From Planctomycetota bacterium (GTDB lineage Bacteria; Planctomycetota; JAJSAM01; JAJVHW01), in the NCBI GenBank assembly GCA_965248445.1, contig CBDFJG010000003.1, forward strand, positions 992,001 to 1,056,000: a stretch of 64,000 bases of DNA. The letters are read 5' to 3'. This document shows, piece by piece, positions 17,689 through 52,600 of the stretch (position 1 is its first letter; each line of letters starts with the position of its first letter). The position numbers and the translations under genes were made by a program. The notes beneath the pieces were generated by a model. It was not told the origin of the DNA and did not search any database. It was given only the letters and a program-made list of their open reading frames with translations.

Positions 17689-20077
17689 GTGCCCCTTCGA
17701 AGTACCCGTCTGCCCGCCGCCCCGGTTCTCGCCGCGGGACTCCTGGCGGGTGCCGCGAGCGTTCCCACCGGCCCCGTGGGACCCGTCGTCGGCCTCCTAT
17801 CTGCGCCCCTGCTCGTCCTGGCCGCCGGCGGGGCCCTGCGACTCGGAGCGCGCTCCCGTCACGGCCTCCTGGCCGCTCTGGCGCTTTCGGCGGCCGCCGC
17901 AGGCGCGGTGCGAGCAGCCGCCGCTCAGGCGCCGCGGCCACCACCCGGGCTGGACACCGGTCCGGGACGCCTCGAGCTGATCGTGACGCGCGCCTCGCCG
18001 GCCGTGGCGGCCGGCCGTGCCCCTTCAACACCGGGCGCCGCCGCCTGGGTCGCGGGACGGCAGGCGGGACCACGGGGCGCCGCAGAGGGACCGGTCATCC
18101 GGGTGCGCATTCCGCAGTCAGAGGGTCTCCGGCGGACCGGCCGGCGGGCGCCCGTCCGCCCGGGGGAGCGCGCCCTGGTCAGCTTCGGCTCGTTGCGGAC
18201 CGTCGACTCGGGCGCCCATGCGGGCGCACACCGAGCGCCGCGCCTGATCGCACACGTCGCCGGACCGGATTCGCTGCGACCCGTCGGCCGGGCGCCGTCG
18301 CCGTTCGCCCCCCTGCTGCGCCTGTCAGCGCGGGCGCGGAGCGGAGTCCGCACGCGGCTGACGCAGGCGACAGGAGATCGCGGCTCCGCCGCCGTCCTGG
18401 CGTGTCTCTTGGTAGGCGACCGCGACGGGATCCCGCCGTCGCTCCGCTCCGCGTTCCGACGGGCGGGCCTGGCGCACCTGCTCGCGGTCAGCGGCCTCCA
18501 CGTCGTGCTCCTGGCGCGGGTGGCGGAGGCGCTGCTGGCCGCGGCTCTCTCCACGCGCGTGCGGCCGCGACGACGGGAACTCGTGCTCGCGGCGGTGCTC
18601 CTGCCGGCACTGACCGCCTACGCCTTGCTCTGCGGACTCGCGCTGCCGGTCGTGCGGGCCTGCGTGTTCCTGGTGGTCGCACGGATAGCGCGCTGCGTCC
18701 GGCGGCGCAGCACGACACTCGATCATCTAGCGGTGGCTGCGACCATCATGATCATCGCAGCACCGGGCGAGAGTCGTGCGCCGGGCTTCCACCTGTCCTT
18801 TGCTGCGGTCGCCGGTCTGGCCCTGCTCACTCCGCGGTTCGAGGAGGCGCTGTTCCCGGGCCTCGCGGTCTTGCGCGCATTCCCCGCGGCGGTGCCGCGC
18901 TGGCGCCTGCGGGTCCACACGTTCTTCGCCCGGGCTGTGTCGGCTGCACTCGCAGCGCACGTCGGCGCAGCGCCGGTCGTGGCCGCCGCGTTCGGCGACG
19001 TGCACCTCGTCGGCCCGCTGGCGAACGTCCCGGCGGTCGCGCTGACGGCGTGGCTGCTCCCCGCAGCCGCTGTCGGTGCTCTGTGCGGCGGACTCCTGCC
19101 ACGTCCCGGGGGTGCACTGCTTCGCGTCGCGACGGACGCGCTCGAGGGCCTCGCGAAGAACGGCCGCTGCCGTACCCCACGCCACGCTCTCGCCCGGTAG
19201 CCCCCCCGTCGTCTCACTCGCCGCGGCGATCGCGCTCCTGTTGTACGCAGCGAGCCGCGGGCGCTGGACCCGAGTCCACCTGCTGTTGCCGCTCGGCGCA
19301 CTGCTCCTTCTCTCTCTCGGGTCGAACCCACTCCGGTCGGGCAGCCCCGACACAGGCATAACCGTGCTGCCCGTGGGACATGGGCAGGCGGTACTGCTCC
19401 GCGCGGGTGGCACGAACGTCCTGGTCGACGCCGGCTCGCGGCTTCCGTCGGTCGCCGCGCGGCGCATCGTGACCTCGTTGGGTCGCGCCGGGGTGCGACA
19501 CCTGGATGCGCTGGTTCTCTCGCACGAGGACGCCGACCATTGCGGTGCGGTCGCGGCCCTCCTGGCGCTTGTGTCCGTGGATCGTGCACTCGTGCCCGCC
19601 GGGTTCGGGGGCGACGCAACGGCTGAAGCCGCTCTCGCGGCGCTCCACGACGCCGGCGTGCCCGTCTCGCGGATCGGGCGCAACGACGTTCACGAGTGGC
19701 CGTCGCTGACTCTTCGAGCGCTCCATCCGCGCGCGGACCGCCCGGGTCCGGTCGGCAACGAGGGCTCGCTCGTGCTCCACGCGCGACTCCTGCTCGATGA
19801 CGGCGAACTGAGCGTGTTGCTTCCGGCCGACGTCGAGGGACTGGCGCTGACCACCCTCGCCCGTGACCCCACTCTTCCCCGTTCGGACGTGCTCCTGCTG
19901 CCCCATCACGGTCGCGGCCCGCCGCGGCAACTGCGTGCGCTGGCCCGGCGGGTCGGCGCGCGGCACCTGATCGCGAGCGCCGCCACAGCAGCGGACGTAT
20001 CGCTGCGCGACGTGCACGTCACGGGACGCGACGGCACGATTCACGTAGACCTCGACGGACTGAGAACCGGGCGCTGA
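17689..20077 (+). pseudogene. comEC: ComEC/Rec2 competence protein split by a +1 frameshift near 19155-19160
   Basis: ORF 17689-19200 has HLLAVSGLHV and GFHLSF. ORF 19076-20077 has the MBL-fold motifs VGHGQA, SHEDADH, NEGSLVL, PHHG. The two frames differ by 1 nt. Confidence 0.8.
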
Positions 20078-40618: not shown

Positions 40619-42001
40619 TCAGTTCTTCGGCGCGACCTCGATCTGGTTCGCGCGGAACGCGACGCGGCCGGTGGAACTGACGCGCTTCTGAGAGACCAGC
40701 GTCAGCGTGAGCGTGCCCGCATCGGTGAGCTCAGCCGTGAACGCGATCGCGTTGGGGGCGACGACGCGCGTCTCGCCGTCCTGCGTGCGAGTGAGCTTGC
40801 GGTTCGCGATCCGGAACTCGATCGGCGTGCTCCACACGATCGCGGGCATGCCAGTCGTCGTGTCCACGCCGAAGTCGATGACCTTCTGGAAGCGCAGTAT
40901 GTGGTTGAGGGGGATCGACTTGCGCCGCGCGCGCAGAGCGGGCGAGTTCGTGAGCGTGGCACCGGCAAGCGACGCGCTGCGCTCGCGACCGATGCGTGTG
41001 CCGCCGCGCGATCCGCTGCCGCGGGCCGCGCCACCACCGATCGTCATGCCGTTGCCTTCGCCGAACAGGCCCTGGCCAGATCCGACGACCTCGCCGCCTC
41101 CACCGCTCGTCGAGCCGCCGCCCACGGATCCGCCGCCGCCACCGCCGAACGGTGCCGGGGGATTGCCGGTGCCGAAGCCGCCGTCCCAGTCGCCGCCGGT
41201 CGGCGTGGGGGCAGGCTCGGGCTCGGGCTCAGGTGCCGGCGCGGGCGCCGAGACACCGGCGGTCGCGATGGCCGTGGACATGATCGTTCCGGAGAGCGTG
41301 AACGTCCCTTGGAGTGTCTGGTTCCCGTTGGTCTCGACGACCGCGGTTCCCGTGCCTTCCACGCTGAACTCGGATCCGTTGCTCGAACTCATGTCCGTGT
41401 TGGTGCCTTCCAGCACAACTCCGCCCATGTACGGCTGGCGCACCTCCACGAATCCGTCGATGAGGATCGACCCCGCGTCGGCATCGATGGTGAACGTCGT
41501 CGAACCGGTGCTGTACCAGTCGAAAACCGCGTCGACGAGCGCCTGCTCCTCCGGTGTCAGCACCTGAGGGGCTGCGTTCACGAGTCTGCCCAGGTCCCCC
41601 CACGAGAGGGCGAGATCGAGCGCTCCGCCGGGACCCGGGTCGTTCGTCGGGTCCTCGTGCGTGCCGAGGATGCCGCGGAACCCGCCGAGATCGCCGCTGC
41701 GAGCGTCCACGATCGCATCGGGTGCGTCGCCGTTCAGGATCTGGAACCGGAAGTTCCCCAGTTCGTCCTGCGCGGTCGTGCTCGTGTTCTGCAACTCCGA
41801 CGCGATGCGCGTGAGCGCCTCGAGGTTGTCGGCCTGCGTCGTGACGCGGGCGGAACCCTCGTCGCCGGCGTTGCCCACGGACTGGAGCAGAGGCACGCCG
41901 AGCGCCATCGTGCCGGCCAGAACAGCCGTCGCGAGCGTCGTCTCCATCATCGTGACGCCGCGCTGTCGCGCGGTTCGGGGGGTCGTGTGCGGGGCAACCA
42001 C
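40619..42001 (-). CDS. Type IV pilin/pseudopilin-like protein (PilW/PulJ-like) with large insertion
   Basis: Prepilin motif RQRG/VTMME plus hydrophobic helix; Pro-Glu and Gly-rich linkers; pilin-like C-terminal beta strands. Confidence 0.72.
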   Translation of the reverse strand: MVAPHTTPRTARQRGVTMMETTLATAVLAGTMALGVPLLQSVGNAGDEGSARVTTQADNLEALTRIASELQNTSTTAQDELGNFRFQILNGDAPDAIVDARSGDLGGFRGILGTHEDPTNDPGPGGALDLALSWGDLGRLVNAAPQVLTPEEQALVDAVFDWYSTGSTTFTIDADAGSILIDGFVEVRQPYMGGVVLEGTNTDMSSSNGSEFSVEGTGTAVVETNGNQTLQGTFTLSGTIMSTAIATAGVSAPAPAPEPEPEPAPTPTGGDWDGGFGTGNPPAPFGGGGGGSVGGGSTSGGGGEVVGSGQGLFGEGNGMTIGGGAARGSGSRGGTRIGRERSASLAGATLTNSPALRARRKSIPLNHILRFQKVIDFGVDTTTGMPAIVWSTPIEFRIANRKLTRTQDGETRVVAPNAIAFTAELTDAGTLTLTLVSQKRVSSTGRVAFRANQIEVAPKN

Positions 42002-44016
42002 TAGAGCACCTCTCTCAGAATGCGTGCGATCTCGACGGGTCGCGCCATCGTCGGGAAGCCGATCGGCGGTCGCCGGAGTTGTGAGCGGTCGAACACGCTC
42101 TTCGCGAAGATGAAGCCGTGCGTCACGGCATTGCTCGAGTCGATGTACGTCGAGACCGGGCGGTGGTACGACACGACCCCGCCCAGGCGGCGGAACCCCA
42201 TCTTCCGGAAGCCGCTTCCGGTCGTGTAGACGCTGCCGTCACTGTCGACCGCAGTGTCGTTGACACGGACGTGGCCGGTCTTCGCCAGGAGAGTCGCGTT
42301 GATCTCGGAGTGATCGGGCATCCACTCCGTGTATTCGATGTCCGAGAGCGCGATCAGGCCGAGCACGCTGTCGCCCGTGTAGTCGGGGTTGGGCGTGTAC
42401 TCGGCGGTGTGGCTGTCGCCGTTCAGGTACGCGGTCTCGAGGGTGGCCGAGCCTCCGCCGCCCTCGTCGTCGTCGTCGTCATCGTCACCGCCCCCACTCG
42501 AACCGCCGGCCATGTGGCCGTAGACGATCGAGTCGGCGATGTGGATGTCGCCTCCCGAAGCGAACGTCACCTGGCCGTCCAGCACGTGGGTGTCGAGGCC
42601 GTCGTGGCTCGAGCGCATCGGGTCGAACACGATGTCGCCGGAGACGAAGACCGTGCCGTGGGTGCCGAGCACGTGGTCGTTGACCTTGCGCTCGTCCACC
42701 CACACGGACTCGTCGGAGACGGTCTCGATCCACTCGTCGATGACCTCGACCTCCTCGGTGACCGTGACCATGTTGCCGGTCTCGACCTCGACGTCTTCGG
42801 TGTGCGTTTCTTCGTACGTATCGCCCGTGGCCACCCAGTGCGTGTCCCAGTGCGACGTGTCCTCCCAGCCGACGACCTCGTCGACCCAGACCGTGTACTC
42901 CTCCTCGACGAGCTGGCTCTCCCAGTACCCGACGCCGCTGCCGCTGCCGCTGCCGCCGGTGTCGCCGCCGCCGCCGCCTTCGACCCAGACGTCGCGCCAC
43001 ACCATGTGGGTGTGGGTCTCTTGGTGTGACTCGATGATCGGGGAGGTCTCCTCGATCCAGATCGGCTGCTCCTCGTAGACGTTCTCCGTCGTCGTCCACG
43101 TGTGCGTCTCGATGACCACCTCGGGAACCTCGTGGGTCACCGTCTCCATGTGCGAGACGGGGGTCCAGGTGGAGACGCCCTGGTTCTCGTAGTGCGCGGC
43201 CTCCCAGTGCTCCAGGTGGATCTGGTCGCCCAGGAGCTTCACGTGGGCGTAGTCCCACTCGCCGCTCAGCGCGAGCATGGTGTCCGCACGCGTGGCGAAG
43301 CCGCCGACGTCGACGTCCAGCAGGCCGCCGATCGGCGCAGCGGCGTCGTTCGACGGTCCGTGGAAGAACGTGTTCTGCGGGTCCGTCTCGGCGGGACCGA
43401 CGGCGCCCGACACGTAGTCGAACCCCGTGACCGCCGTGACCGCATCACGGAAGTGCTTGTCCGCGAAGTAGAACTGGATGTTCTGGTTCGAGTGGATGGC
43501 GCCCTCGGGCGCATCGATCCACGGGAACACGGGCGAGCCGCCGCCGGAGATCCCGAGCGGGTGCGCGTCCACGAAGTAGTTGAAGTCCGCGAACGACTGG
43601 CGTTCGCGCACGAGCGCCATCACGCGCCGCGTCTGGTCGCCGCGCTCCGCCTCGGAGATGATCCGATACGTGGCACCGAGGCCCGGCACGGGGGCGCCGA
43701 ACTGCATCGCGGTCACGCCCGTCTCCCAGCCGTCCAGGTCGATGAACTGGTCGTCGCCGCGTGCGAGCGCCTGCTGGATGGCGAGGTTCCGTCCGCCCGC
43801 GTCGTAGCCGGACGAGTTGATCAAGTGGGAGACGACCTCGAGCTGGCCGAGCGCCTCGAAGAGGGCCGCCTCGCGGTGCGCATACGCCTCGGACTTGGCG
43901 CTCTCGCGCAACTGCCGCATGGTGTACCCGGCCGTGAGCGCGCCGACGCCGATGCCGACGGCGAGGATGATCGGGAGGACGCTGCCGTCCTCACGTGAGC
44001 GGTTCAGACTTCTCAT
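42001..44016 (-). CDS. PilX/PulK-like pilin-associated protein with a long Trp/Thr/Glu-rich insertion
   Basis: REDG/SVLPIIL N-terminus (no Glu5, PilX-like); IHSNQ, SVLGLIA, PPIGFP C-terminal motifs. Confidence 0.7.
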   Translation of the reverse strand: MRSLNRSREDGSVLPIILAVGIGVGALTAGYTMRQLRESAKSEAYAHREAALFEALGQLEVVSHLINSSGYDAGGRNLAIQQALARGDDQFIDLDGWETGVTAMQFGAPVPGLGATYRIISEAERGDQTRRVMALVRERQSFADFNYFVDAHPLGISGGGSPVFPWIDAPEGAIHSNQNIQFYFADKHFRDAVTAVTGFDYVSGAVGPAETDPQNTFFHGPSNDAAAPIGGLLDVDVGGFATRADTMLALSGEWDYAHVKLLGDQIHLEHWEAAHYENQGVSTWTPVSHMETVTHEVPEVVIETHTWTTTENVYEEQPIWIEETSPIIESHQETHTHMVWRDVWVEGGGGGDTGGSGSGSGVGYWESQLVEEEYTVWVDEVVGWEDTSHWDTHWVATGDTYEETHTEDVEVETGNMVTVTEEVEVIDEWIETVSDESVWVDERKVNDHVLGTHGTVFVSGDIVFDPMRSSHDGLDTHVLDGQVTFASGGDIHIADSIVYGHMAGGSSGGGDDDDDDDEGGGGSATLETAYLNGDSHTAEYTPNPDYTGDSVLGLIALSDIEYTEWMPDHSEINATLLAKTGHVRVNDTAVDSDGSVYTTGSGFRKMGFRRLGGVVSYHRPVSTYIDSSNAVTHGFIFAKSVFDRSQLRRPPIGFPTMARPVEIARILREVL

Positions 44017-44018
44017 GA

Positions 44019-44611
44019 CTAGGACCCCTCCACGGGAGCAGCGCGAACGGTCCGCAGCACGGGCTCGCCGTTCCAGAAGATCTCGATACGGAGCAGACGC
44101 GGATCGCCTTCGCTCTCCAGCGTCACCAGCGAGGTGCCGTCTCCGGCCGACGTGGCGAGGTTGCCCGACGTCGGGTCATCCGCGCCGCGCACGCCCTGGA
44201 ACGTCCCGTTCCCGTCGAGGTCAGCGTTGATCTCGACCTCGAAGACGCCGCTCGTCTCGAACCCGTCGAGGCGGAAGCGCCAACCGGCAGCGCCGACCGG
44301 AGTCTCAAGGCTGCGCAGGGTGAGCACGCCGGTCGAGGTGACCGAACCGTCGTCGTCGAAGAACTCCTGGATCTGCGGGGAGCTCGCCGTCTCGCCGTCG
44401 GGTCCACGTTGCTCCCGTACGGAAGCGCCACCATGCGCTCCATGTACTTGTAGGCCTGCAGGCGAACGACCTCGCGCTCGCGAGTGCTCGCCGAGGCGCT
44501 CTCGGCAGAGAGGACGGCCATGACGAAGCCGCCCATCGACACGGCGAGGATGCCGATCGAGACGAGCACTTCGACGAATGTCAAGCCGCGTTCGCGGCGG
44601 GTTCTGCGCAT
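44019..44611 (-). pseudogene. PilV/PulI-like pilin frameshifted by an 8-bp tandem duplication
   Basis: RERG/LTFVEVLVSIGIL prepilin motif. CTCGCCGT is duplicated at 44383-44398; removing one copy gives a 585-nt, 194-aa ORF. Confidence 0.8.
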
Positions 44612-44660
44612 GTGACTGACTCCACTTGGGACGCGGACGGAGTGCCCGGCCGGTACCCAT

Positions 44661-44676
44661 GGCAAACGACAGGCCG
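44661..44676 (-). promoter_or_regulatory. Putative sigma54 (-24/-12) promoter of the pilin-like operon
   Basis: Minus strand CGGCCTGTCGTTTGCC = GG-N10-GC with TTTGC, about 50 nt upstream of the ATG. Confidence 0.55.
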
Positions 44677-44976: not shown

Positions 44977-46439
44977 CCGTTCACCCCTTCGTCGCGAGCC
45001 AGGATCCAGATCGTTCGGCCATCGGTCGATCAAGATGTTGTGGGCGAGCGGCAGGACGAGGATCTGCGGGCGATGGTCGAGGGCCTTCTGGCCTGGATCG
45101 AGGAGCTGGAGCGTCGCGAAGCGAAGCATCTGCGCCGCATCGACGAGCTCGAGTCGCGTCTGAAGCGTGACTCCCGCAACAGCTCGAGGCCTCCGTCGTC
45201 GGACCCGGCGTGGTCCAAGCGCCGTCGCGGCCGAAGGCCGCGTAGCGGTCGCAAGCAGGGCGGACAGCCGGGCCATGAGGGCACGGCGCGCGAGCTGGTG
45301 GATCCGTCCAACGTCGATGAGACCAAGGAGCACCGTCCCGACCTCTGCGACGCGTGCGGACACGACGATCTCGAGCAGGGCATCGGCGATCCGTACCGGC
45401 ACCAGGTGACGGTGCTCCCGCGCGTGCTCGTCACGGTGCGGGAGCACCGGCTGCACAAGGCGCGGTGCCGGCGCTGTCGTGCGGTCACGACGGCGGTCCT
45501 GCCCGATGGCGTGCCGACCGGGGCCTTCGGTCCGCGGCTGACCACACTTGCCGGCGCGCTGCGCGGCGTGTACCGCGTGAGCGTGCGGGAGACGCAGCGG
45601 CTGCTCGGTGAGATCTTCGGTGTGAAGATGTCGCTGGGCAAGATCAGCGACTGTGAGCGTCGGCTCAGTGACGCTCTGCACTCGTCGTACCTCGAAGCCC
45701 TCGGGGCAGTCCGCACGTCGCTGCGAGCCAACGTGGACGAGACGTCGTGGAAGGAACGGGGCCGGGTGTGCTGGCTGTGGGCGGCGGAGAGCGAGCACGC
45801 CACAGCCTTCGGGATCGATCGCCGCCGCAGTGCCAAGGCGAAAGGGCGGCTGATCGGGCGGCGCTTCGGTGGCACGGTGATCAGCGACCGGATGGGTGCC
45901 TACGAGTCACACCCACTTGCCCGCCGCCAGCTCTGCTGGGCGCACATCGAGCGCGCCTTCCGTGCGCTGGCCGAAGGCCCGCGAGGACATCGCCGCTTCG
46001 GCAACAAGGGCGTCATGATCGCGCAGTCGGTCATGCGCAGCTACCGGCTCTTCGGTGAGCACGGCGACCGTGACCGGCTGCAAGGCGAAGCCGCTGTGCT
46101 GCGCGGACGGCTCGAGCGACTGATCGCGAACGACGACTCGGCTCTGGCCAACCATCTGCGCCCCCGCGTGGTCGCCCTCTTCACCTATGCGCGGACCCAG
46201 GACGTGAGTCCGACGAACAACGCCGCCGAGCGCGCGGTCCGCAAAGCGGTGCTCTGGCGCAAGGGCTCCTTCGGAAGCCAGTCCGCTCGCGGACTCCGCT
46301 TCGCCGAGCGCGTGTTGACCGCCGCGGCCACGCTGCGACGCCGTGGCGACCAAGTCTTCGACTTCCTCGCCGACTCGGTCGCCGCGCACCTCACCGGCGC
46401 CGACCCGCCCGTCATGGTCCCGCTGCCCGTCGCACGCTG
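44973..46439 (+). mobile_element. IS66-family (single-ORF, ISBst12-like) element 1; right end missing or interrupted
   Basis: Left end GTAACCGTTCAC; transposase follows; no matching right IR seen. Confidence 0.75.
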
Positions 46440-46464
46440 GTACCCGTTCAGCCCTTGGTTCTGA
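45040..46464 (+). CDS. IS66-family transposase
   Basis: NSSRPPSSD, GGQPGHEG, CxxC zinc motifs, DET, SDR, QLCWAH, TNNAAER. The last codons read into element 2. Confidence 0.9.
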   Translation: MGERQDEDLRAMVEGLLAWIEELERREAKHLRRIDELESRLKRDSRNSSRPPSSDPAWSKRRRGRRPRSGRKQGGQPGHEGTARELVDPSNVDETKEHRPDLCDACGHDDLEQGIGDPYRHQVTVLPRVLVTVREHRLHKARCRRCRAVTTAVLPDGVPTGAFGPRLTTLAGALRGVYRVSVRETQRLLGEIFGVKMSLGKISDCERRLSDALHSSYLEALGAVRTSLRANVDETSWKERGRVCWLWAAESEHATAFGIDRRRSAKAKGRLIGRRFGGTVISDRMGAYESHPLARRQLCWAHIERAFRALAEGPRGHRRFGNKGVMIAQSVMRSYRLFGEHGDRDRLQGEAAVLRGRLERLIANDDSALANHLRPRVVALFTYARTQDVSPTNNAAERAVRKAVLWRKGSFGSQSARGLRFAERVLTAAATLRRRGDQVFDFLADSVAAHLTGADPPVMVPLPVARWYPFSPWF

Positions 46465-47971
46465 GCTCGGATCCAGATCGCTTTCCGTTCGGTCGATGAA
46501 TCGGATGTGGGCACCGATGAGCTGCGTGATCTGGTCGAGCGCCTGACCCGTCGTCTGGACGCTCGGGACGAGACGATTGCCGAGCAGGCGGAGGTGATCG
46601 AGCGGCAGGCGGCACGGATCGACGATCTCGAGAGCCGTCTTCGCCGGGACTCCCGCACCTCCTCGCGCCCACCGTCCTCGGATCCGTCGTGGTCCAAGAA
46701 GCGGCGGCGGCGCAAGCCGCCGTCGGACAAGCGCCAGGGTGCGCAGCCCGGCCACAAAGGGGCGACGCGCAAGCTCGTGGACGAGTCCGAGGTCGATGGC
46801 GTAGAGGACCACCGCCCGCGCGAGTGCAGCGCGTGTGGGAGCGACGTGCTCGTCCCGATCGATCGCGCCCCGACACGCCAGCAGGTCTTCGAGGTCCCGC
46901 CACGGCTGATCCAGGTGACCGAGCACCGGTTGCACCGGGCACGGTGCACGGACTGTGGCGCCACGTCCACTGCCTCGCTGCCAAGCGGTGTGACGGCGAG
47001 TCCCTTCGGCCCGCGACTCTGTGCGCTCACCGCGGCTCTGGTCGGCGTCTTCCGCCTGTCGCGGCGCGAGACCAGTCGTCTGTTGCGTGACGTCATCGGC
47101 GTCTCGATGTCACCGGGCACGGTCAGTGCGATCGAGGAGCGGGTGTCGGGAGCCATCTCCTCAGCGCACATCGAGGCCCTCGGGGCCGTACGCACGAGCA
47201 GCGTCGCCTATGTAGACGAGACACCGTGGTCGCGTCGTGGCACGCTGCATTGGCTGTGGAGCGCGGTCTGTGAGCACGCCACGGTCCATCGTATCGATCG
47301 GCGCAGGAGCGCCAAGGCCATGCGGCGACTCGTGGGCAAGCGCTTCAGGGGCGTCCTCGTGACCGACCGTATGGGCGCTTACGACCAGCATCCCACCGAG
47401 CGCCGCCAGATCTGCTGGGCGCATCTCGAGAGGGACTTTCGAGCGCTGGCCGAGGGCTCGCGCGGCGGCCGGCGCTTCGGCAAGCAGGCCGTGCGTCTCG
47501 CCCAGGCTGTCATGCGAGCTCAGCGTCACTTCGGCGAGCACGGGGACCGCGACCGCATGCGGCGTGAGCTGCGTCTCACATGGGACCGACTCCTGACGCT
47601 GCTCGTGCGCGGCGCAGACAGCAAGCACCGCCGAGTACGCGGAACGACTCGGCATCTGCTCGACCGAGCGGAGGCTCTGTGGACCTTCGCCGACGTCCCT
47701 GGCGTCTCCCCGACGAACAACGCCGCTGAGCGCGCGGTGCGCAAGCCGGTCCTGTGGAGACGCGCAACGCACGGAAGTCAGAGCGAGCGCGGACTCCGCT
47801 TCGTCGAGCGCATCCTGACCGTCACCGCCACGCTCCGCCAGCGTGGCGAGAGCGTCTTCGATTACCTCGCAGACGTCAGCGCGGCACTCGCGCACAACCG
47901 CTCGCCGCCGGCTCTCGTCGCGCTCCCGATCACGCGCTGAGGCCGCGGATCGTCATACCCTGAACGGGTAC
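46440..47971 (+). mobile_element. IS66-family (single-ORF) element 2, complete
   Basis: 12-bp perfect terminal IRs GTACCCGTTCAG (46440-46451) / CTGAACGGGTAC (47960-47971); no flanking direct repeat. Confidence 0.85.
46507..47940 (+). CDS. IS66-family transposase
   Basis: TSSRPPSSD, GAQPGHKG, DET, TDR, QICWAH, TNNAAER. Confidence 0.9.
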   Translation: MGTDELRDLVERLTRRLDARDETIAEQAEVIERQAARIDDLESRLRRDSRTSSRPPSSDPSWSKKRRRRKPPSDKRQGAQPGHKGATRKLVDESEVDGVEDHRPRECSACGSDVLVPIDRAPTRQQVFEVPPRLIQVTEHRLHRARCTDCGATSTASLPSGVTASPFGPRLCALTAALVGVFRLSRRETSRLLRDVIGVSMSPGTVSAIEERVSGAISSAHIEALGAVRTSSVAYVDETPWSRRGTLHWLWSAVCEHATVHRIDRRRSAKAMRRLVGKRFRGVLVTDRMGAYDQHPTERRQICWAHLERDFRALAEGSRGGRRFGKQAVRLAQAVMRAQRHFGEHGDRDRMRRELRLTWDRLLTLLVRGADSKHRRVRGTTRHLLDRAEALWTFADVPGVSPTNNAAERAVRKPVLWRRATHGSQSERGLRFVERILTVTATLRQRGESVFDYLADVSAALAHNRSPPALVALPITR

Positions 47972-49258: not shown

Positions 49259-50927
49259 CCGCATCTGTTCACGAGACGTCGCGATGACGGTGCTTTCGGA
49301 GTCCACAGGGTCAGATCTTGGCCAGGCGAGGGCGGATGCTGTCGTCGTTGCCACAAGGGCAACGCGAGTGAGCGGCCGAAACGGCGCGGATTCTGCGGTG
49401 TGGGCAGACCGTAGGCCGGGCGGTGGTGTGGCGGACGGCGCGGCGGGACGTCAGGTCGGCTTCGGGGATGCCAGCAGTCGTTGCGCGCAGCGCTCGAAGA
49501 CGTGCTGCCAGGGCCACGACGAGGACATCGAGACCCAGATCCGGCGCGTCGTGATCCGCACGAGCGCGCCGATCTTGAGCAGCCGCAGGCGGATCGTGCC
49601 GGCTTGCGCACGCGCCATCTCGGTGCCGGCGAGACCGATGCGTCGCAGCGCACAGGTCAGGACGTAGGCCATGGCCGACATGGCCATCCGCACGGCGTTG
49701 CCCTGCATCGTGTGCACCGACAGACGGGTGCCGAAGAGCTCGAGCTGCTGCTCCTTGATGCGATTCTCCGCCTCGCCCCGGGCGCAGTAGAGCTGCTCGT
49801 AGAGACGCTTGCTGCTCCAGCTACGAGGCGGCAGATTGGTCACCACGAAGCGGGGATTGCGCTTGCCGCCCGGCAGGTGCTCGGCCTTGGCGACCACGCG
49901 ACGCCTCTGGCTCCAGCTCCCCAGCGTGGTCCAGGCAAAGTCGCGAAAGACCCGGGCTGCTCGGCCGGTCTGCACGGCACGGGCTGCGGCCTCATCGAGC
50001 GCGTCTTCGACGTGTCGCTCAAGGCGCTCATTGCGCGCCATGCCCAGCAGGTAGAAGTGGCCGGCGGCCTCGCACCAGGCCATCAGCTCCTCGCGGCAAA
50101 AGCCCGAGTCTGCGCGCACGAGCACCTTGGCCCGGGGCCAGCGGCGCCGCAGACGTAAGACCAGCGCACGGAGCTCGTCCACGACTCCGCGCGCGGGATC
50201 TCTGTCAGCGGTCTGGAGCCGAGCGAGCAAGAGGTGCTCGCCGCAGAAGACGTACAGCGGCAGGTAGCAGTAGTGCCCGTAGTAGCCGTGGAAGAAGCGG
50301 CCCTCCTGCCGGCCGTGCAGCCGCACGTCGGAGTGGTCCAGGTCCAGCACGAGCAGGCCCGGATCCTCCGGCCCCATGGCCTCGCAGAAGACGTCGCTGA
50401 GCACGCTGTCCACGCGCTCCTGGTCCATCTCGATCTTGGCGTAGCGCGTCTGTGCCGTGGCGCCGAGCTGCGTGGTCTCGAGCCGCGAGAGCGTCGGGTG
50501 CGTGGCCAGAGCACCCTCGCGCTTGCCGCACGCCGCGGCAAACAGCGGGTCCTTGCCGACATGGTCGTGGTCCACCAGATCCTCGTAGCCCGCGCACAGC
50601 CCGAAGACCCGCTGACGCAGCATCTGGCCGACCGTGTGCTCGACCCGACGCGGGTCCCGGTGGTCCCCGAAGCAGCGCGCAAACCGCGAGAGCAGATCGA
50701 TGCGACGATCGACCCGCTCGAGCAGCAGCACGCCCCCGTCGCTCGTCACGGTACCGGCGTCGAAGCGCGTCACCGCGGTGCGTCCACAGATGCCCGCGAA
50801 GAGGGTCCCCTGCGGGCTACAGTCTGTCGTCATCGGGCCGGCGCTCCTGTCGGTGCAAGTACTAGCGAGTACGAGCACTTAGACAGACGACGGCCCGCTC
50901 AGATTCCCGGCTGGTGAACGATTCGGG
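49259..50927 (-). mobile_element. IS1380-family element, copy 1 (1669 bp) flanked by CTAG
   Basis: Ends ccgcatctgttcac...gtgaacgattcggg (imperfect IR); CTAG at 49255-49258 and 50928-50931. Confidence 0.85.
49451..50833 (-). CDS. IS1380-family transposase (DDE_Tnp_1_4)
   Basis: TSDGG, GYED, HGRQEGRFFHGYY, RADSGF, YCARGEAENRIKE. Confidence 0.92.
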   Translation of the reverse strand: MTTDCSPQGTLFAGICGRTAVTRFDAGTVTSDGGVLLLERVDRRIDLLSRFARCFGDHRDPRRVEHTVGQMLRQRVFGLCAGYEDLVDHDHVGKDPLFAAACGKREGALATHPTLSRLETTQLGATAQTRYAKIEMDQERVDSVLSDVFCEAMGPEDPGLLVLDLDHSDVRLHGRQEGRFFHGYYGHYCYLPLYVFCGEHLLLARLQTADRDPARGVVDELRALVLRLRRRWPRAKVLVRADSGFCREELMAWCEAAGHFYLLGMARNERLERHVEDALDEAAARAVQTGRAARVFRDFAWTTLGSWSQRRRVVAKAEHLPGGKRNPRFVVTNLPPRSWSSKRLYEQLYCARGEAENRIKEQQLELFGTRLSVHTMQGNAVRMAMSAMAYVLTCALRRIGLAGTEMARAQAGTIRLRLLKIGALVRITTRRIWVSMSSSWPWQHVFERCAQRLLASPKPT

Positions 50928-50931
50928 CTAG

Positions 50932-52600
50932 CCGCATCTGTTCACGAGACGTCGCGATGACGGTGCTTTCGGAGTCCACAGGGTCAGATCTTGGCCAGGC
51001 GAGGGCGGATGCTGTCGTCGTTGCCACAAGGGCAACGCGAGTGAGCGGCCGAAACGGCGCGGATTCTGCGGTGTGGGCAGACCGTAGGCCGGGCGGTGGT
51101 GTGGCGGACGGCGCGGCGGGACGTCAGGTCGGCTTCGGGGATGCCAGCAGTCGTTGCGCGCAGCGCTCGAAGACGTGCTGCCAGGGCCACGACGAGGACA
51201 TCGAGACCCAGATCCGGCGCGTCGTGATCCGCACGAGCGCGCCGATCTTGAGCAGCCGCAGGCGGATCGTGCCGGCTTGCGCACGCGCCATCTCGGTGCC
51301 GGCGAGACCGATGCGTCGCAGCGCACAGGTCAGGACGTAGGCCATGGCCGACATGGCCATCCGCACGGCGTTGCCCTGCATCGTGTGCACCGACAGACGG
51401 GTGCCGAAGAGCTCGAGCTGCTGCTCCTTGATGCGATTCTCCGCCTCGCCCCGGGCGCAGTAGAGCTGCTCGTAGAGACGCTTGCTGCTCCAGCTACGAG
51501 GCGGCAGATTGGTCACCACGAAGCGGGGATTGCGCTTGCCGCCCGGCAGGTGCTCGGCCTTGGCGACCACGCGACGCCTCTGGCTCCAGCTCCCCAGCGT
51601 GGTCCAGGCAAAGTCGCGAAAGACCCGGGCTGCTCGGCCGGTCTGCACGGCACGGGCTGCGGCCTCATCGAGCGCGTCTTCGACGTGTCGCTCAAGGCGC
51701 TCATTGCGCGCCATGCCCAGCAGGTAGAAGTGGCCGGCGGCCTCGCACCAGGCCATCAGCTCCTCGCGGCAAAAGCCCGAGTCTGCGCGCACGAGCACCT
51801 TGGCCCGGGGCCAGCGGCGCCGCAGACGTAAGACCAGCGCACGGAGCTCGTCCACGACTCCGCGCGCGGGATCTCTGTCAGCGGTCTGGAGCCGAGCGAG
51901 CAAGAGGTGCTCGCCGCAGAAGACGTACAGCGGCAGGTAGCAGTAGTGCCCGTAGTAGCCGTGGAAGAAGCGGCCCTCCTGCCGGCCGTGCAGCCGCACG
52001 TCGGAGTGGTCCAGGTCCAGCACGAGCAGGCCCGGATCCTCCGGCCCCATGGCCTCGCAGAAGACGTCGCTGAGCACGCTGTCCACGCGCTCCTGGTCCA
52101 TCTCGATCTTGGCGTAGCGCGTCTGTGCCGTGGCGCCGAGCTGCGTGGTCTCGAGCCGCGAGAGCGTCGGGTGCGTGGCCAGAGCACCCTCGCGCTTGCC
52201 GCACGCCGCGGCAAACAGCGGGTCCTTGCCGACATGGTCGTGGTCCACCAGATCCTCGTAGCCCGCGCACAGCCCGAAGACCCGCTGACGCAGCATCTGG
52301 CCGACCGTGTGCTCGACCCGACGCGGGTCCCGGTGGTCCCCGAAGCAGCGCGCAAACCGCGAGAGCAGATCGATGCGACGATCGGTCCGCTCGAGCAGCA
52401 GCACGCCCCCGTCGCTCGTCACGGTACCGGCGTCGAAGCGCGTCACCGCGGTGCGTCCACAGATGCCCGCGAAGAGGGTCCCCTGCGGGCTACAGTCTGT
52501 CGTCATCGGGCCGGCGCTCCTGTCGGTGCAAGTACTAGCGAGTACGAGCACTTAGACAGACGACGGCCCGCTCAGATTCCCGGCTGGTGAACGATTCGGG
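50932..52600 (-). mobile_element. IS1380-family element, copy 2 (tandem direct copy)
   Basis: Near-identical at an offset of 1673 bp; CTAG at 50928-50931 and 52601-52604. Confidence 0.85.
51124..52506 (-). CDS. IS1380-family transposase
   Basis: Identical to copy 1 except V->T (ERVD/ERTD). Confidence 0.92.
   Translation of the reverse strand: MTTDCSPQGTLFAGICGRTAVTRFDAGTVTSDGGVLLLERTDRRIDLLSRFARCFGDHRDPRRVEHTVGQMLRQRVFGLCAGYEDLVDHDHVGKDPLFAAACGKREGALATHPTLSRLETTQLGATAQTRYAKIEMDQERVDSVLSDVFCEAMGPEDPGLLVLDLDHSDVRLHGRQEGRFFHGYYGHYCYLPLYVFCGEHLLLARLQTADRDPARGVVDELRALVLRLRRRWPRAKVLVRADSGFCREELMAWCEAAGHFYLLGMARNERLERHVEDALDEAAARAVQTGRAARVFRDFAWTTLGSWSQRRRVVAKAEHLPGGKRNPRFVVTNLPPRSWSSKRLYEQLYCARGEAENRIKEQQLELFGTRLSVHTMQGNAVRMAMSAMAYVLTCALRRIGLAGTEMARAQAGTIRLRLLKIGALVRITTRRIWVSMSSSWPWQHVFERCAQRLLASPKPT

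What the first reader, a model, noticed from the sequence alone, without database searches (positions are those of the whole stretch)
42680..43220. Mirror-symmetric giant beta-hairpin stalk inserted in a PilX-like pilin
Seen: in the 671-aa protein, about 75-80 residues rich in T/V/E/H/W (HWEAAHY...VWRDVWVE) lead to a Gly/Ser turn (GGGGGDTGGSGSGSGV). A similar-length stretch then returns (GYWESQ...SVWVDER). Aromatic motifs pair off around the turn: WVE with GYW, WIEE with SHW, HWEAAHY with VWVDER. The segment has almost no Lys/Arg and is very acidic and His-rich. Inference: one long antiparallel, Trp-zippered two-stranded ribbon, roughly 25 nm at 0.33 nm/residue, projecting from a pilus or pseudopilus subunit. 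It could be a spacer or ruler, or a metal/mineral-binding probe. I know of no characterised minor pilin with this architecture.
Basis: partly seen in the sequence, partly recalled or inferred. Interest (0 to 1): 0.75.

Follow-up and report, generated by a model that had tools for sequence, protein, structure and literature searches.

The report
Giant beta-ribbon stalk on tip pilin
A bacterial pilus-tip protein has one hairpin stretched into a predicted thin two-stranded rod about 24 nm long, whose outgoing and returning strands lengthen and shorten together across relatives, suggesting an undescribed way to build adjustable-reach protein antennas.

Summary
Real. The 671-aa protein (minus strand, 44016-42001) models as a ComZ-like PilX pilin: pilin fold plus beta-solenoid. 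Residues 271-443 extend one capping hairpin into two continuous strands around a Gly loop. AlphaFold2 gives two ~75-residue strands. Arm lengths match across 48 homologues (r 0.986, slope 1.0, 39-152 residues), after phylogenetic correction and in 13 further stalks (r 0.993). The stalk is built from mirrored units: Pro-Val-Tyr faces Gly/His about every 14/15 residues, and AW faces HPAV. Stalkless relatives exist. Two relatives carry a helical-looking insert at the tip (one folded). Three genomes hold paralogues with no stalk, ~100 and ~133 residues. Acid/His richness and Trp are not conserved, so a metal probe or Trp zipper is not the family's principle, and a fixed ruler is disfavoured. Best reading: a length-tunable spacer presenting a conserved Gly loop beyond the pilus tip; function inferred. 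The neighbouring pilV-like gene is frameshifted here. Not found in the papers searched. This scan noted the same architecture in another genome (e1-6554792).

The parts
42001..44016 (-). 671-aa ComZ-like PilX minor pilin (P0001), single copy in the genome
   Evidence: ORF; AlphaFold2; Foldseek 6QVI E 8.5e-4; VIA-align 6qvi_A Z 12.5, rmsd 9.5, 316 aligned; one hit with protein and with body profile
43813..44016 (-). Class III-type leader (probable cut after Gly11) and N-terminal pilin helix, residues 14-68, without Glu5
   Evidence: Sequence; helix in model; 0 of 14 close relatives with a readable leader have Glu at +5
43201..43254 (-). Base of the stalk: capping strands 255-263 and 266-272 at one end of the solenoid. 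In stalkless relatives the hairpin closes here within 13-24 residues.
   Evidence: DSSP; 15 of 69 anchored homologues are short
42979..43206 (-). Outgoing arm, residues 271-346
   Evidence: E275-321 and E324-346, block pLDDT 64-91; arm length 73
42931..42978 (-). Gly-rich tip loop, residues 347-362, flanked by conserved W-V and G-[YH]-W motifs; replaced by 137-222-residue inserts in 3 of 48 homologues
   Evidence: pLDDT <50 at 351-360; 45 loops of 16-28 residues, 40% Gly, a G-x-x-[VITL]-G-G-like core in 31 of 45; long loops in P0042, P0055, P0056
42688..42930 (-). Returning arm, residues 363-443
   Evidence: E363-386 and E389-440, block pLDDT 62-87; length tracks arm 1 across the family
42067..42669 (-). 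Main beta-solenoid coils, residues ~450-650, including a Gly/Asp loop (504-524) that is longer here than in the aligned relatives
   Evidence: DUF3494-type ice-binding beta-helices Z 10.8-11.2, rmsd 3.3-3.6; alignment
44019..44665 (-). PilV-like minor pilin, frameshifted by an 8-bp tandem duplication at 44383-44399
   Evidence: PF07963; TIGR02523 27.7 bits, below cut-off 52.2; two frames match one intact gene in L005; duplication; same letters in short-read contigs
40619..42001 (-). 460-aa PilW/GspJ-like minor pilin with Glu5 and its own variable insert
   Evidence: Sequence; neighbour of the pilX gene in L005, L006, L007; insert 226 aa here, 529 in L005, 44 in L006; PilW label inferred from position and leader, no family cut-off met

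Best explanation
The protein is the capping (PilX/GspK-position) subunit of a type IV filament tip complex, with PilV- and PilW-like partners encoded on either side. Its body is the ComZ architecture: a pilin fold with an inserted beta-solenoid. One capping hairpin at the solenoid end, most likely the end away from the pilin domain, is extended into a free two-stranded antiparallel ribbon exposed on both faces. The ribbon is built from paired half-units on the two strands: a 14-residue unit with Pro-Val/Ile-Tyr faces a 15-residue unit with a Gly or Ser-His bulge; in one clade an 18-20-residue AW unit faces an HPAV unit. These landmarks lock the register and probably set the twist. Length is tuned by adding or removing matched units in both arms. 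The stalk works as a thin spacer that holds a conserved Gly-rich loop, or occasionally a small domain, 13-50 nm beyond the pilus cap, so the tip can contact a surface or cell receptor through a surface layer. Shown: sequence symmetry, coupled lengths, mirrored landmarks, gene cluster. Predicted: fold. Inferred: tip location, distal direction, rigidity, spacer/adhesion function. Confidence is about 0.85 for the ribbon, 0.85 for a tip pilin, and 0.5 for the whole statement including function.
For: Model: strands of 47+23 and 24+52 residues with mirrored breaks; no other partner of that length exists in the chain. A second model (P0042) gives E257-355, helices 358-492, E502-604. Arm lengths: r 0.986, slope 1.005, SD of difference 4.1 vs 34 in permutations, 48 homologues; 47 independent contrasts r 0.988, 27 of 27 large contrasts with the same sign; 13 further stalks from 7 genomes r 0.993, difference 8-14. 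Mirrored landmarks counted from the tip: P0004 AW at 15/35/55/75 vs HPAV at 15/34/53/72; P0010 15/35/53/71 vs 15/34/52/70. Pro-x-Tyr faces Gly/His in 63 of 105 vs 32+-5 and 29 of 62 vs 14+-4 in the later set, with positions 14/28/42/56 vs 16/31/46/61. In G282c, 15-residue tandem copies in arm 1 face 14-residue copies in arm 2. The tip loop is conserved while arm charge is not. ComZ is the best match in both structure searches. ComZ is argued to be a tip pilin, and its solenoid ends in two antiparallel strand pairs (PMC6561018, passages and section 6). Cyanobacterial PilX proteins carry extra domains on the distal solenoid end (PMC13759059, section 7). The genome has 7 secretin matches, 6 PilT over cut-off, PilM, PilO, PilC-type and prepilin peptidase genes.
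Against: No experiment. No coordinates or contact map were returned, so pairing is read from DSSP and the direction of the stalk from ComZ topology. pTM is only 0.57 and mid-stalk pLDDT 62-75. A free two-stranded ribbon may be floppy. A first, fully automatic tip placement gave only r 0.44 (Spearman 0.73) because long tip inserts misplace the centre; the 0.986 figure uses motif anchors, 17 tips set by hand, and leaves out 6 of 54 long or intermediate inserts without a recognisable tip. Two of the 48 are mismatched by about one unit (P0024 +14, P0026 -15). Only 3 of 48 have a tip insert, one is low-complexity, and the folded knob has pLDDT 37-71 with no fold match. No ligand is known for the Gly loop, which could be only a permissive turn. 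The pilV-like partner is frameshifted in this genome, so this cluster may be off.
Confidence: 0.5

Rival explanations
1. Envelope-spanning leader or plug: with the pilus retracted, the stalk runs from the priming complex up into or through the secretin. It would centre the tip, help open the gate, or act as a standing antenna, with length matched to a particular machine (the 'ruler' reading).
For: Stalks of 13-50 nm bracket the 37-nm inner-to-outer-membrane distance of a piliated V. cholerae machine (PMC12632996, passages). In M. xanthus the tip protein PilY1 supplies a plug at the secretin entry (PMC7541494, passages), and solenoid PilX is proposed to replace the PilY1 cap (PMC13759059). The genome has 7 secretin matches, some of ~900-1000 aa, so several lengths could serve several machines.
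Against: Paralogues in one genome differ: G121 none/104/132, G097 none/102/134, G282 none/100/134. 15 of 69 homologues need no stalk. Close relatives differ by 59-152 residues. No stalk-to-secretin pairing was tested.
Confidence: 0.2
2. The stalk's own faces and free edge strands are the binding surface (polymer, DNA for basic variants, or edge-strand pairing with a partner protein), and the tip loop is only a turn.
For: Both faces are polar and aromatic-rich (V 16%, T 16%, E 12%, Q 8%, Y 7%). Charge swings from strongly acidic to strongly basic between relatives and paralogues, as expected if ligands differ. ComZ binds DNA (PMC6561018), and a ComEC-family gene lies about 23 kb away.
Against: This stalk is strongly acidic (D+E 40, K+R 2), so DNA binding is unlikely here. 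Apart from the register landmarks, arm positions are poorly conserved while the tip motif is kept.
Confidence: 0.14
3. Metal- or mineral-binding probe, or a metal-bridged zipper between stalks of neighbouring cells, as with Zn-dependent Aap repeats.
For: In this protein the arms hold 40 D/E and 10 His, with His and Glu in alternating runs. Zn-dependent homophilic binding of Aap B-repeats is described (PMC9802226, PMC3110253; search listing only).
Against: Not conserved: many relatives have 0-2 His and some are basic (P0032 9 D/E vs 21 K/R; G097b 31 vs 61). It could at most be a local adaptation of this lineage.
Confidence: 0.08
4. Membrane-inserting hairpin that assembles into a beta-barrel pore with other copies.
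For: Weak Foldseek rows to long-hairpin pore structures (best E 0.027, TM-score by query under 0.1).
Against: No amphipathic alternation (0.79 vs 0.75 in shuffles for the family; 0.60 and 0.74 vs 0.72 for this protein) and a hydrophilic tip half (mean hydropathy -0.67). Length varies threefold, and a tip subunit is expected in one copy per filament (inference from GspK/ComZ).
Confidence: 0.02
5. Neutral, disordered repeat expansion with no fixed structure.
For: Biased composition and tandem duplications within arms. A few relatives have irregular inserts (6 of 54 skipped).
Against: Two distant segments gaining and losing the same number of units through many independent changes requires selection on their pairing.
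Confidence: 0.03

Closest known systems
ComZ of Thermus thermophilus (PDB 6QVI; PMC6561018, passages and section 6 read)
   Same: Pilin fold with an inserted beta-solenoid resembling ice-binding proteins; encoded beside minor pilins; top hit in Foldseek and VIA-align; antiparallel strand pairs at one solenoid end.
   Different: 10-15% identity. The word 'hairpin' does not occur in the paper's main text and no long ribbon is described in what I read. ComZ binds DNA through lysines, whereas this stalk is acidic.
Cyanobacterial solenoid PilX (PilX-Com, PilX-EPS/HpsA; PMC13759059, passages and section 7 read)
   Same: Same body; proposed cap and adhesin; extra domains grafted on the distal solenoid end; several PilX/PilV sets per genome priming different filaments.
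   Different: Extension there is by a longer solenoid and added domains, not by an out-and-back two-stranded ribbon ('hairpin' 0 times in main text). Its supplementary structure figures were not seen.
Periscope proteins such as SasG, Aap and Sgo0707 (10.1101/2020.12.24.424174, abstract read)
   Same: Variable-length rod that sets how far a distal site projects from the cell.
   Different: Those are head-to-tail arrays of folded domains, so one repeat indel changes length. Here the repeats are nested, half on each strand, so length change needs two matched indels far apart; the rod is on a pilin, and no G5 or SHIRT family hit was seen.
Bovine ultralong CDR H3 'stalk and knob' (PMC5994613, PMC11229553; search listing only)
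   Same: A beta-ribbon stalk that grows out of a hairpin and presents a knob.
   Different: The whole CDR is at most about 70 residues; this stalk has 39-152 residues per arm and periodic landmarks, and is unrelated in origin.

Membership tests
ComZ-like / solenoid PilX tip pilins | Prepilin-type leader ending in Gly, long hydrophobic N-terminal helix, no Glu5 (PilX/GspK trait, recalled) | tested here: met
   Helix 14-68; 0 of 14 with Glu5
ComZ-like / solenoid PilX tip pilins | Beta-solenoid of ice-binding-protein type inserted before the last pilin strand | tested here: met
   On a predicted model: 6qvi_A Z 12.5, rmsd 9.5, 316 aligned, range 47-671; ice-binding proteins Z 10.8-11.2 over 140-649; pilins over 39-671; Foldseek E 8.5e-4
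ComZ-like / solenoid PilX tip pilins | Encoded with PilV- and PilW-type minor pilins | tested here: met
   Same three genes, order shuffled, in the window and L005, L006, L007; family labels below curated cut-offs; pilV-like gene frameshifted in the window
ComZ-like / solenoid PilX tip pilins | Located at the filament tip; DNA binding or adhesion | not testable with these tools
   Needs localisation and binding assays
Pfam DUF4900 (PF16241) | Score over the curated cut-off of 29.4 bits | tested here: not met
   14.9 bits, E 0.035. The nearest Atlas cluster (0.95) has the family on 19% of members: a lead only.
Periscope proteins | Head-to-tail tandem array of folded domains | tested here: not met
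   Units are split between two antiparallel arms; models show continuous strands
Periscope proteins | Length varies among strains by repeat gain or loss | tested here: inconclusive
   Variation seen between species and paralogues; only one sample was available for this organism, with no variant
G5 / SasG-type repeats | G5 family profile match | tested here: not met
   No such hit in P0001 at E up to 1 or in 25 homologues at E up to 0.1
Tryptophan-zipper hairpins | Cross-strand Trp-Trp pairs as the main stabiliser (recalled definition) | tested here: inconclusive
   Modest W-W excess, 31 of 114 vs 20+-3.6; none for W/Y; p 0.20 in this protein
Beta-pore-forming hairpins | Alternating hydrophobic/polar faces in a membrane-spanning stretch | tested here: not met

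The most novel reading that the evidence does not exclude
A new class of length-tunable protein rod: a free two-stranded beta-ribbon assembled from nested mirror repeats of about 14/15 residues (about 4.6 nm per unit), evolving by paired indels on opposite strands. Some Planctomycetota keep a graded set of pilus caps (no stalk, ~33 nm, ~44 nm). The stalk is long enough to pass the secretin from the resting priming complex, giving the cell a standing surface antenna or an interchangeable display mast without extending a pilus.
Probability: 0.22. Interest if true: 0.87.

Novelty: new variant of a known kind. Interest (0 to 1): 0.68.

Why it matters
Free-standing beta-hairpins in solved structures are usually short or braced by other chains (recalled). 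A monomeric two-stranded ribbon of 70-150 residues per arm, with a readable register code, would extend what a single chain can build and offer a natural template for thin protein rods of chosen length. The family also makes an evolutionary question testable: how two distant segments gain and lose repeats in step. The two one-unit mismatches (P0024, P0026) are candidate intermediates. For pilus biology, it adds a route to specialise filament tips in a little-studied phylum and gives clear predictions for what cryo-tomography should see at the tip or in the secretin channel.

Tried and rejected
Plus-strand reading of 42001-44016: has stops. Sequence search of the PDB: 6 weak rows, best E 0.37, none meaningful. 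NCBIfam: nothing for P0001, P0010, P0042, P0103. Atlas search with the insert alone: no usable hit, which shows neither absence nor novelty. Search for the stalk module in other, shorter proteins (P0010 region 330-560, proteins of 30-444 aa): none at E 0.001 among 7,999 scored. Search for much longer forms (1349-3850 aa): none among 8,000 scored, weak evidence. So whether this ribbon occurs in other protein families is open. Viral fold library: best E 1.5e-4 with TM-score 0.07 and rmsd 32, read as long-hairpin noise. Fold search with the knob-bearing model: nothing at E 0.001; ComZ first at E 0.13. No stalk-only model was folded or searched, so the lack of a solved match for the stalk is not established. 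Two stalk copies plus zinc in the complex predictor: no answer, score 0.00, controls not folded. PilY1 family search in the genome: no match, but the control rang nowhere, so uninformative. Sequencing runs: no RNA holder listed. Automatic tip placement by Gly density alone fails for long tip inserts. Quantised arm length: peak at 13.5 residues, R 0.46, p 0.001 against jitter, but 0.33 on the 27 distinct lengths and inflated by kinship; the landmark positions are the better evidence. In-print searches (listings only); none listed a pilin with such a stalk.
Full report
Observation. The finding lies in a 671-aa ORF on the minus strand, 44016..42001. The 179-residue insert has 43 D/E, 27 V, 24 T, 13 W, 12 H and 3 K/R. 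It is the most T/V/E/Q/Y/W/I-rich 120-residue window among 18,359 six-frame ORFs of the genome (0.64; next 0.55). Codon GC3 is like the rest of the gene. Contigs of four runs of one sample, which may be the source, agree with the assembly across the locus. The aromatic mirror in this one protein is not significant by itself (p 0.20).

The host protein. Pfam gives only a sub-threshold DUF4900 hit. AlphaFold2 on an 18-sequence alignment gives mean pLDDT 71.7 and pTM 0.57, a long N-terminal helix (14-68), a pilin sheet completed by the last strand, and a beta-solenoid. ComZ of Thermus thermophilus is the top match in Foldseek (E 8.5e-4) and in VIA-align against 48,161 chains (Z 12.5, rmsd 9.5, 316 aligned), followed by ice-binding beta-helices (Z about 11) and GspK/PilA-type pilins. 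The leader ends in Gly and lacks Glu5 in 14 of 14 readable close relatives, the PilX/GspK trait (recalled). The gene sits between a PilV-like and a PilW-like gene; the same trio, in shuffled order, recurs in three loci titled Planctomycetota. The genome has full type IV filament machinery: 7 secretin matches, 6 PilT over cut-off, PilB/GspE-type ATPases, PilM, PilO, a PilC-type protein and a prepilin peptidase, much of it within about 100 kb. An alignment of the family matched 47 of 401 genomes of the phylum, stalked or not, and the protein matched 4 of 17 in the class.

The stalk in the model. DSSP gives E275-321 and E324-346, a low-confidence loop, then E363-386 and E389-440, with block pLDDT 62-91. 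Strands this long and unbroken can pair only with each other. The breaks mirror (322-323 with 387-388; 273-274 with 441-442), placing W320 opposite W390 and Y276 opposite W439. No coordinates were returned, so this is read from DSSP. At 0.33 nm per residue (recalled) the 73-residue arm spans about 24 nm. The stalk extends a capping hairpin that follows a linker and short helix. In ComZ the equivalent linker crosses to the other end of the solenoid, which ends in two antiparallel strand pairs (PMC6561018, passages and section 6). I infer that the stalk points away from the pilin domain.

Coupled arm lengths. Of 104 proteins of 300 aa or more, 74 had both flanks and 69 could be anchored; 15 close the hairpin within 13-24 residues. 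A first automatic pass that placed the tip by Gly density gave r 0.44 (Spearman 0.73), spoiled by long tip inserts. With the conserved tip motifs as anchors (17 set by hand) and 6 of 54 inserts left out for lack of a recognisable tip, 48 stalks gave r 0.986, slope 1.005, arm 1 from 39 to 152 residues, SD of the difference 4.1 against 34 in permutations. On a tree of the stalk-free bodies (FastTree, midpoint root, no support values examined), 47 independent contrasts gave r 0.988, and 27 of 27 large contrasts had the same sign. Short forms fall both in a separate clade and among stalked clades; gain and loss were not polarised. From 18 further genome loci, 13 stalks in 7 genomes gave r 0.993, 3 were stalkless and 2 lacked the C anchor. 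Two of the 48 are off by about one unit (P0024, P0026).

How it is built. Counted from the tip, P0004 has AW at 15/35/55/75 in arm 1 and HPAV at 15/34/53/72 in arm 2; P0010 has 15/35/53/71 and 15/34/52/70. In the wider family Pro-Val/Ile-Tyr faces Gly or His on the other arm in 63 of 105 cases against 32+-5 for shifted arms, and 29 of 62 against 14+-4 in the later set with the same window. Positions run 14/28/42/56 against 16/31/46/61, and polarity flips along the stalk. In G282c, 15-residue tandem copies in arm 1 face 14-residue copies in arm 2. I read this as a one-residue bulge per unit that fixes register and twist (inference). The window's own protein has a degenerate version, for example P326 level with G383. 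The arms are not amphipathic, as expected for a sheet exposed on both faces.

What varies and what is kept. Charge, His and Trp are not kept: D+E/K+R runs from 40/2 here to 9/21 and 31/61, His 0-13, Trp 1-16. W-W facing is modestly enriched (31 of 114 vs 20+-3.6) but W/Y pairs are not. The tip loop is kept: 16-28 residues, 40% Gly, a G-x-x-[VITL]-G-G-like core in 31 of 45, flanked by W-V and G-[YH]-W. Three homologues replace it with 137-222 residues at unchanged arm lengths; one folds as a 99-residue strand, a low-confidence helical knob and a 103-residue strand. Three genomes hold one stalkless and two stalked paralogues (none/104/132, none/102/134, none/100/134), and two others hold 88 and 102.

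Mechanism. The best-supported reading is a tip-capping pilin whose stalk is a length-tunable spacer presenting the Gly loop or a knob beyond the pilus cap (0.5 overall; 0.85 for the ribbon itself). A conserved tip on arms of free composition, swappable tip content and graded paralogues all fit a spacer. Cyanobacterial solenoid PilX proteins are proposed caps and adhesins with domains grafted at the distal end, with different sets priming different filaments (PMC13759059, passages and section 7). The main rival is an envelope-spanning leader or plug (0.2): stalk lengths bracket the 37-nm envelope of a V. cholerae machine (PMC12632996, passages), and PilY1 forms a plug at the secretin entry in M. 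xanthus (PMC7541494, passages), but within-genome length spread argues against one fixed ruler. Binding along the stalk (0.14), metal probe or zipper (0.08), pore hairpin (0.02) and neutral disorder (0.03) follow. A caution for this genome: the pilV-like gene is frameshifted by an 8-bp tandem duplication, also seen in the short-read contigs, with two IS66-family transposases just upstream, so this cluster may be silent or switched off while the pilX gene itself is intact.

Comparison and novelty. The body files with ComZ-like solenoid PilX pilins on leader, fold and gene cluster; tip location and ligand could not be tested, and the DUF4900 cut-off is not met. The stalk works like a Periscope-protein rod (10.1101/2020.12.24.424174, abstract) or a bovine antibody stalk-and-knob (listing only) but fails their defining architecture. 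Eight paper searches aimed at it (listings) showed no pilin with such a stalk. The library lacks most subscription papers, and the supplementary structure figures of PMC13759059 were not seen and could show related grafts. This scan noted the same architecture in another genome (e1-6554792); my reading was recorded before that and the tests here are my own. I score it a new variant of a known kind, carrying a structural element that may itself be new; interest 0.68.

Noticed in passing
window 44383-44399 (- strand gene 44665-44019): The pilV-like gene is frameshifted by an 8-bp tandem duplication, also present in short-read contigs of the same sample. 8 bp is the IS66 target-duplication length (recalled), so it may be an excision footprint or a slipped-strand switch.
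   Followed up: partly
window 45040-47940 and 49451-52551; L059:12935-14359: Two different IS66-family transposases in tandem just upstream of the pilin cluster, two near-identical DDE_Tnp_1_4 copies in tandem, and a further ORF with the same start sitting between the pilM gene and the next gene of that operon. The IS66 end has 30-60-fold higher summed contig depth.
   Followed up: partly
window 40619-42001; L005:8070-10334; L006:8028-8804: The PilW-like neighbour has its own hypervariable insert at one site: 226 aa (Gly/Pro linkers around a small beta-looking block) here, 44 aa in L006, and 529 aa in L005, where it is Ala-rich, looks like a long out-and-back helical hairpin and has a Lys-rich centre. 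L005 also has a second pilW-like gene.
   Followed up: partly
P0042, P0055, P0056: Tip loop replaced by 150, 137 and 222 residues with arm lengths unchanged; the first two look helical, the third is a charged low-complexity tract.
   Followed up: partly
L041-L055 (G141, G073, G121, G097, G282, G324): One family of genomes carries 2-3 paralogues each, typically one stalkless, one ~100 and one ~133 residues per arm; the longest are the most basic.
   Followed up: partly
G000:C3:936000-1066000: About 130 kb around the window holds a PilM/PilO/secretin/PilT operon, two long secretins (917 and 1014 aa), a ComEC-family gene (window ~18400-19140), a prepilin peptidase (window 63607 onward) and a PilT-PilB-PilC-pilin operon. 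The genome has 6 PilT-family genes over cut-off.
   Followed up: partly
window 42445-42507: A Gly/Asp run (residues 504-524) enlarges a solenoid loop that is short in the other 16 close homologues except P0002.
   Followed up: no
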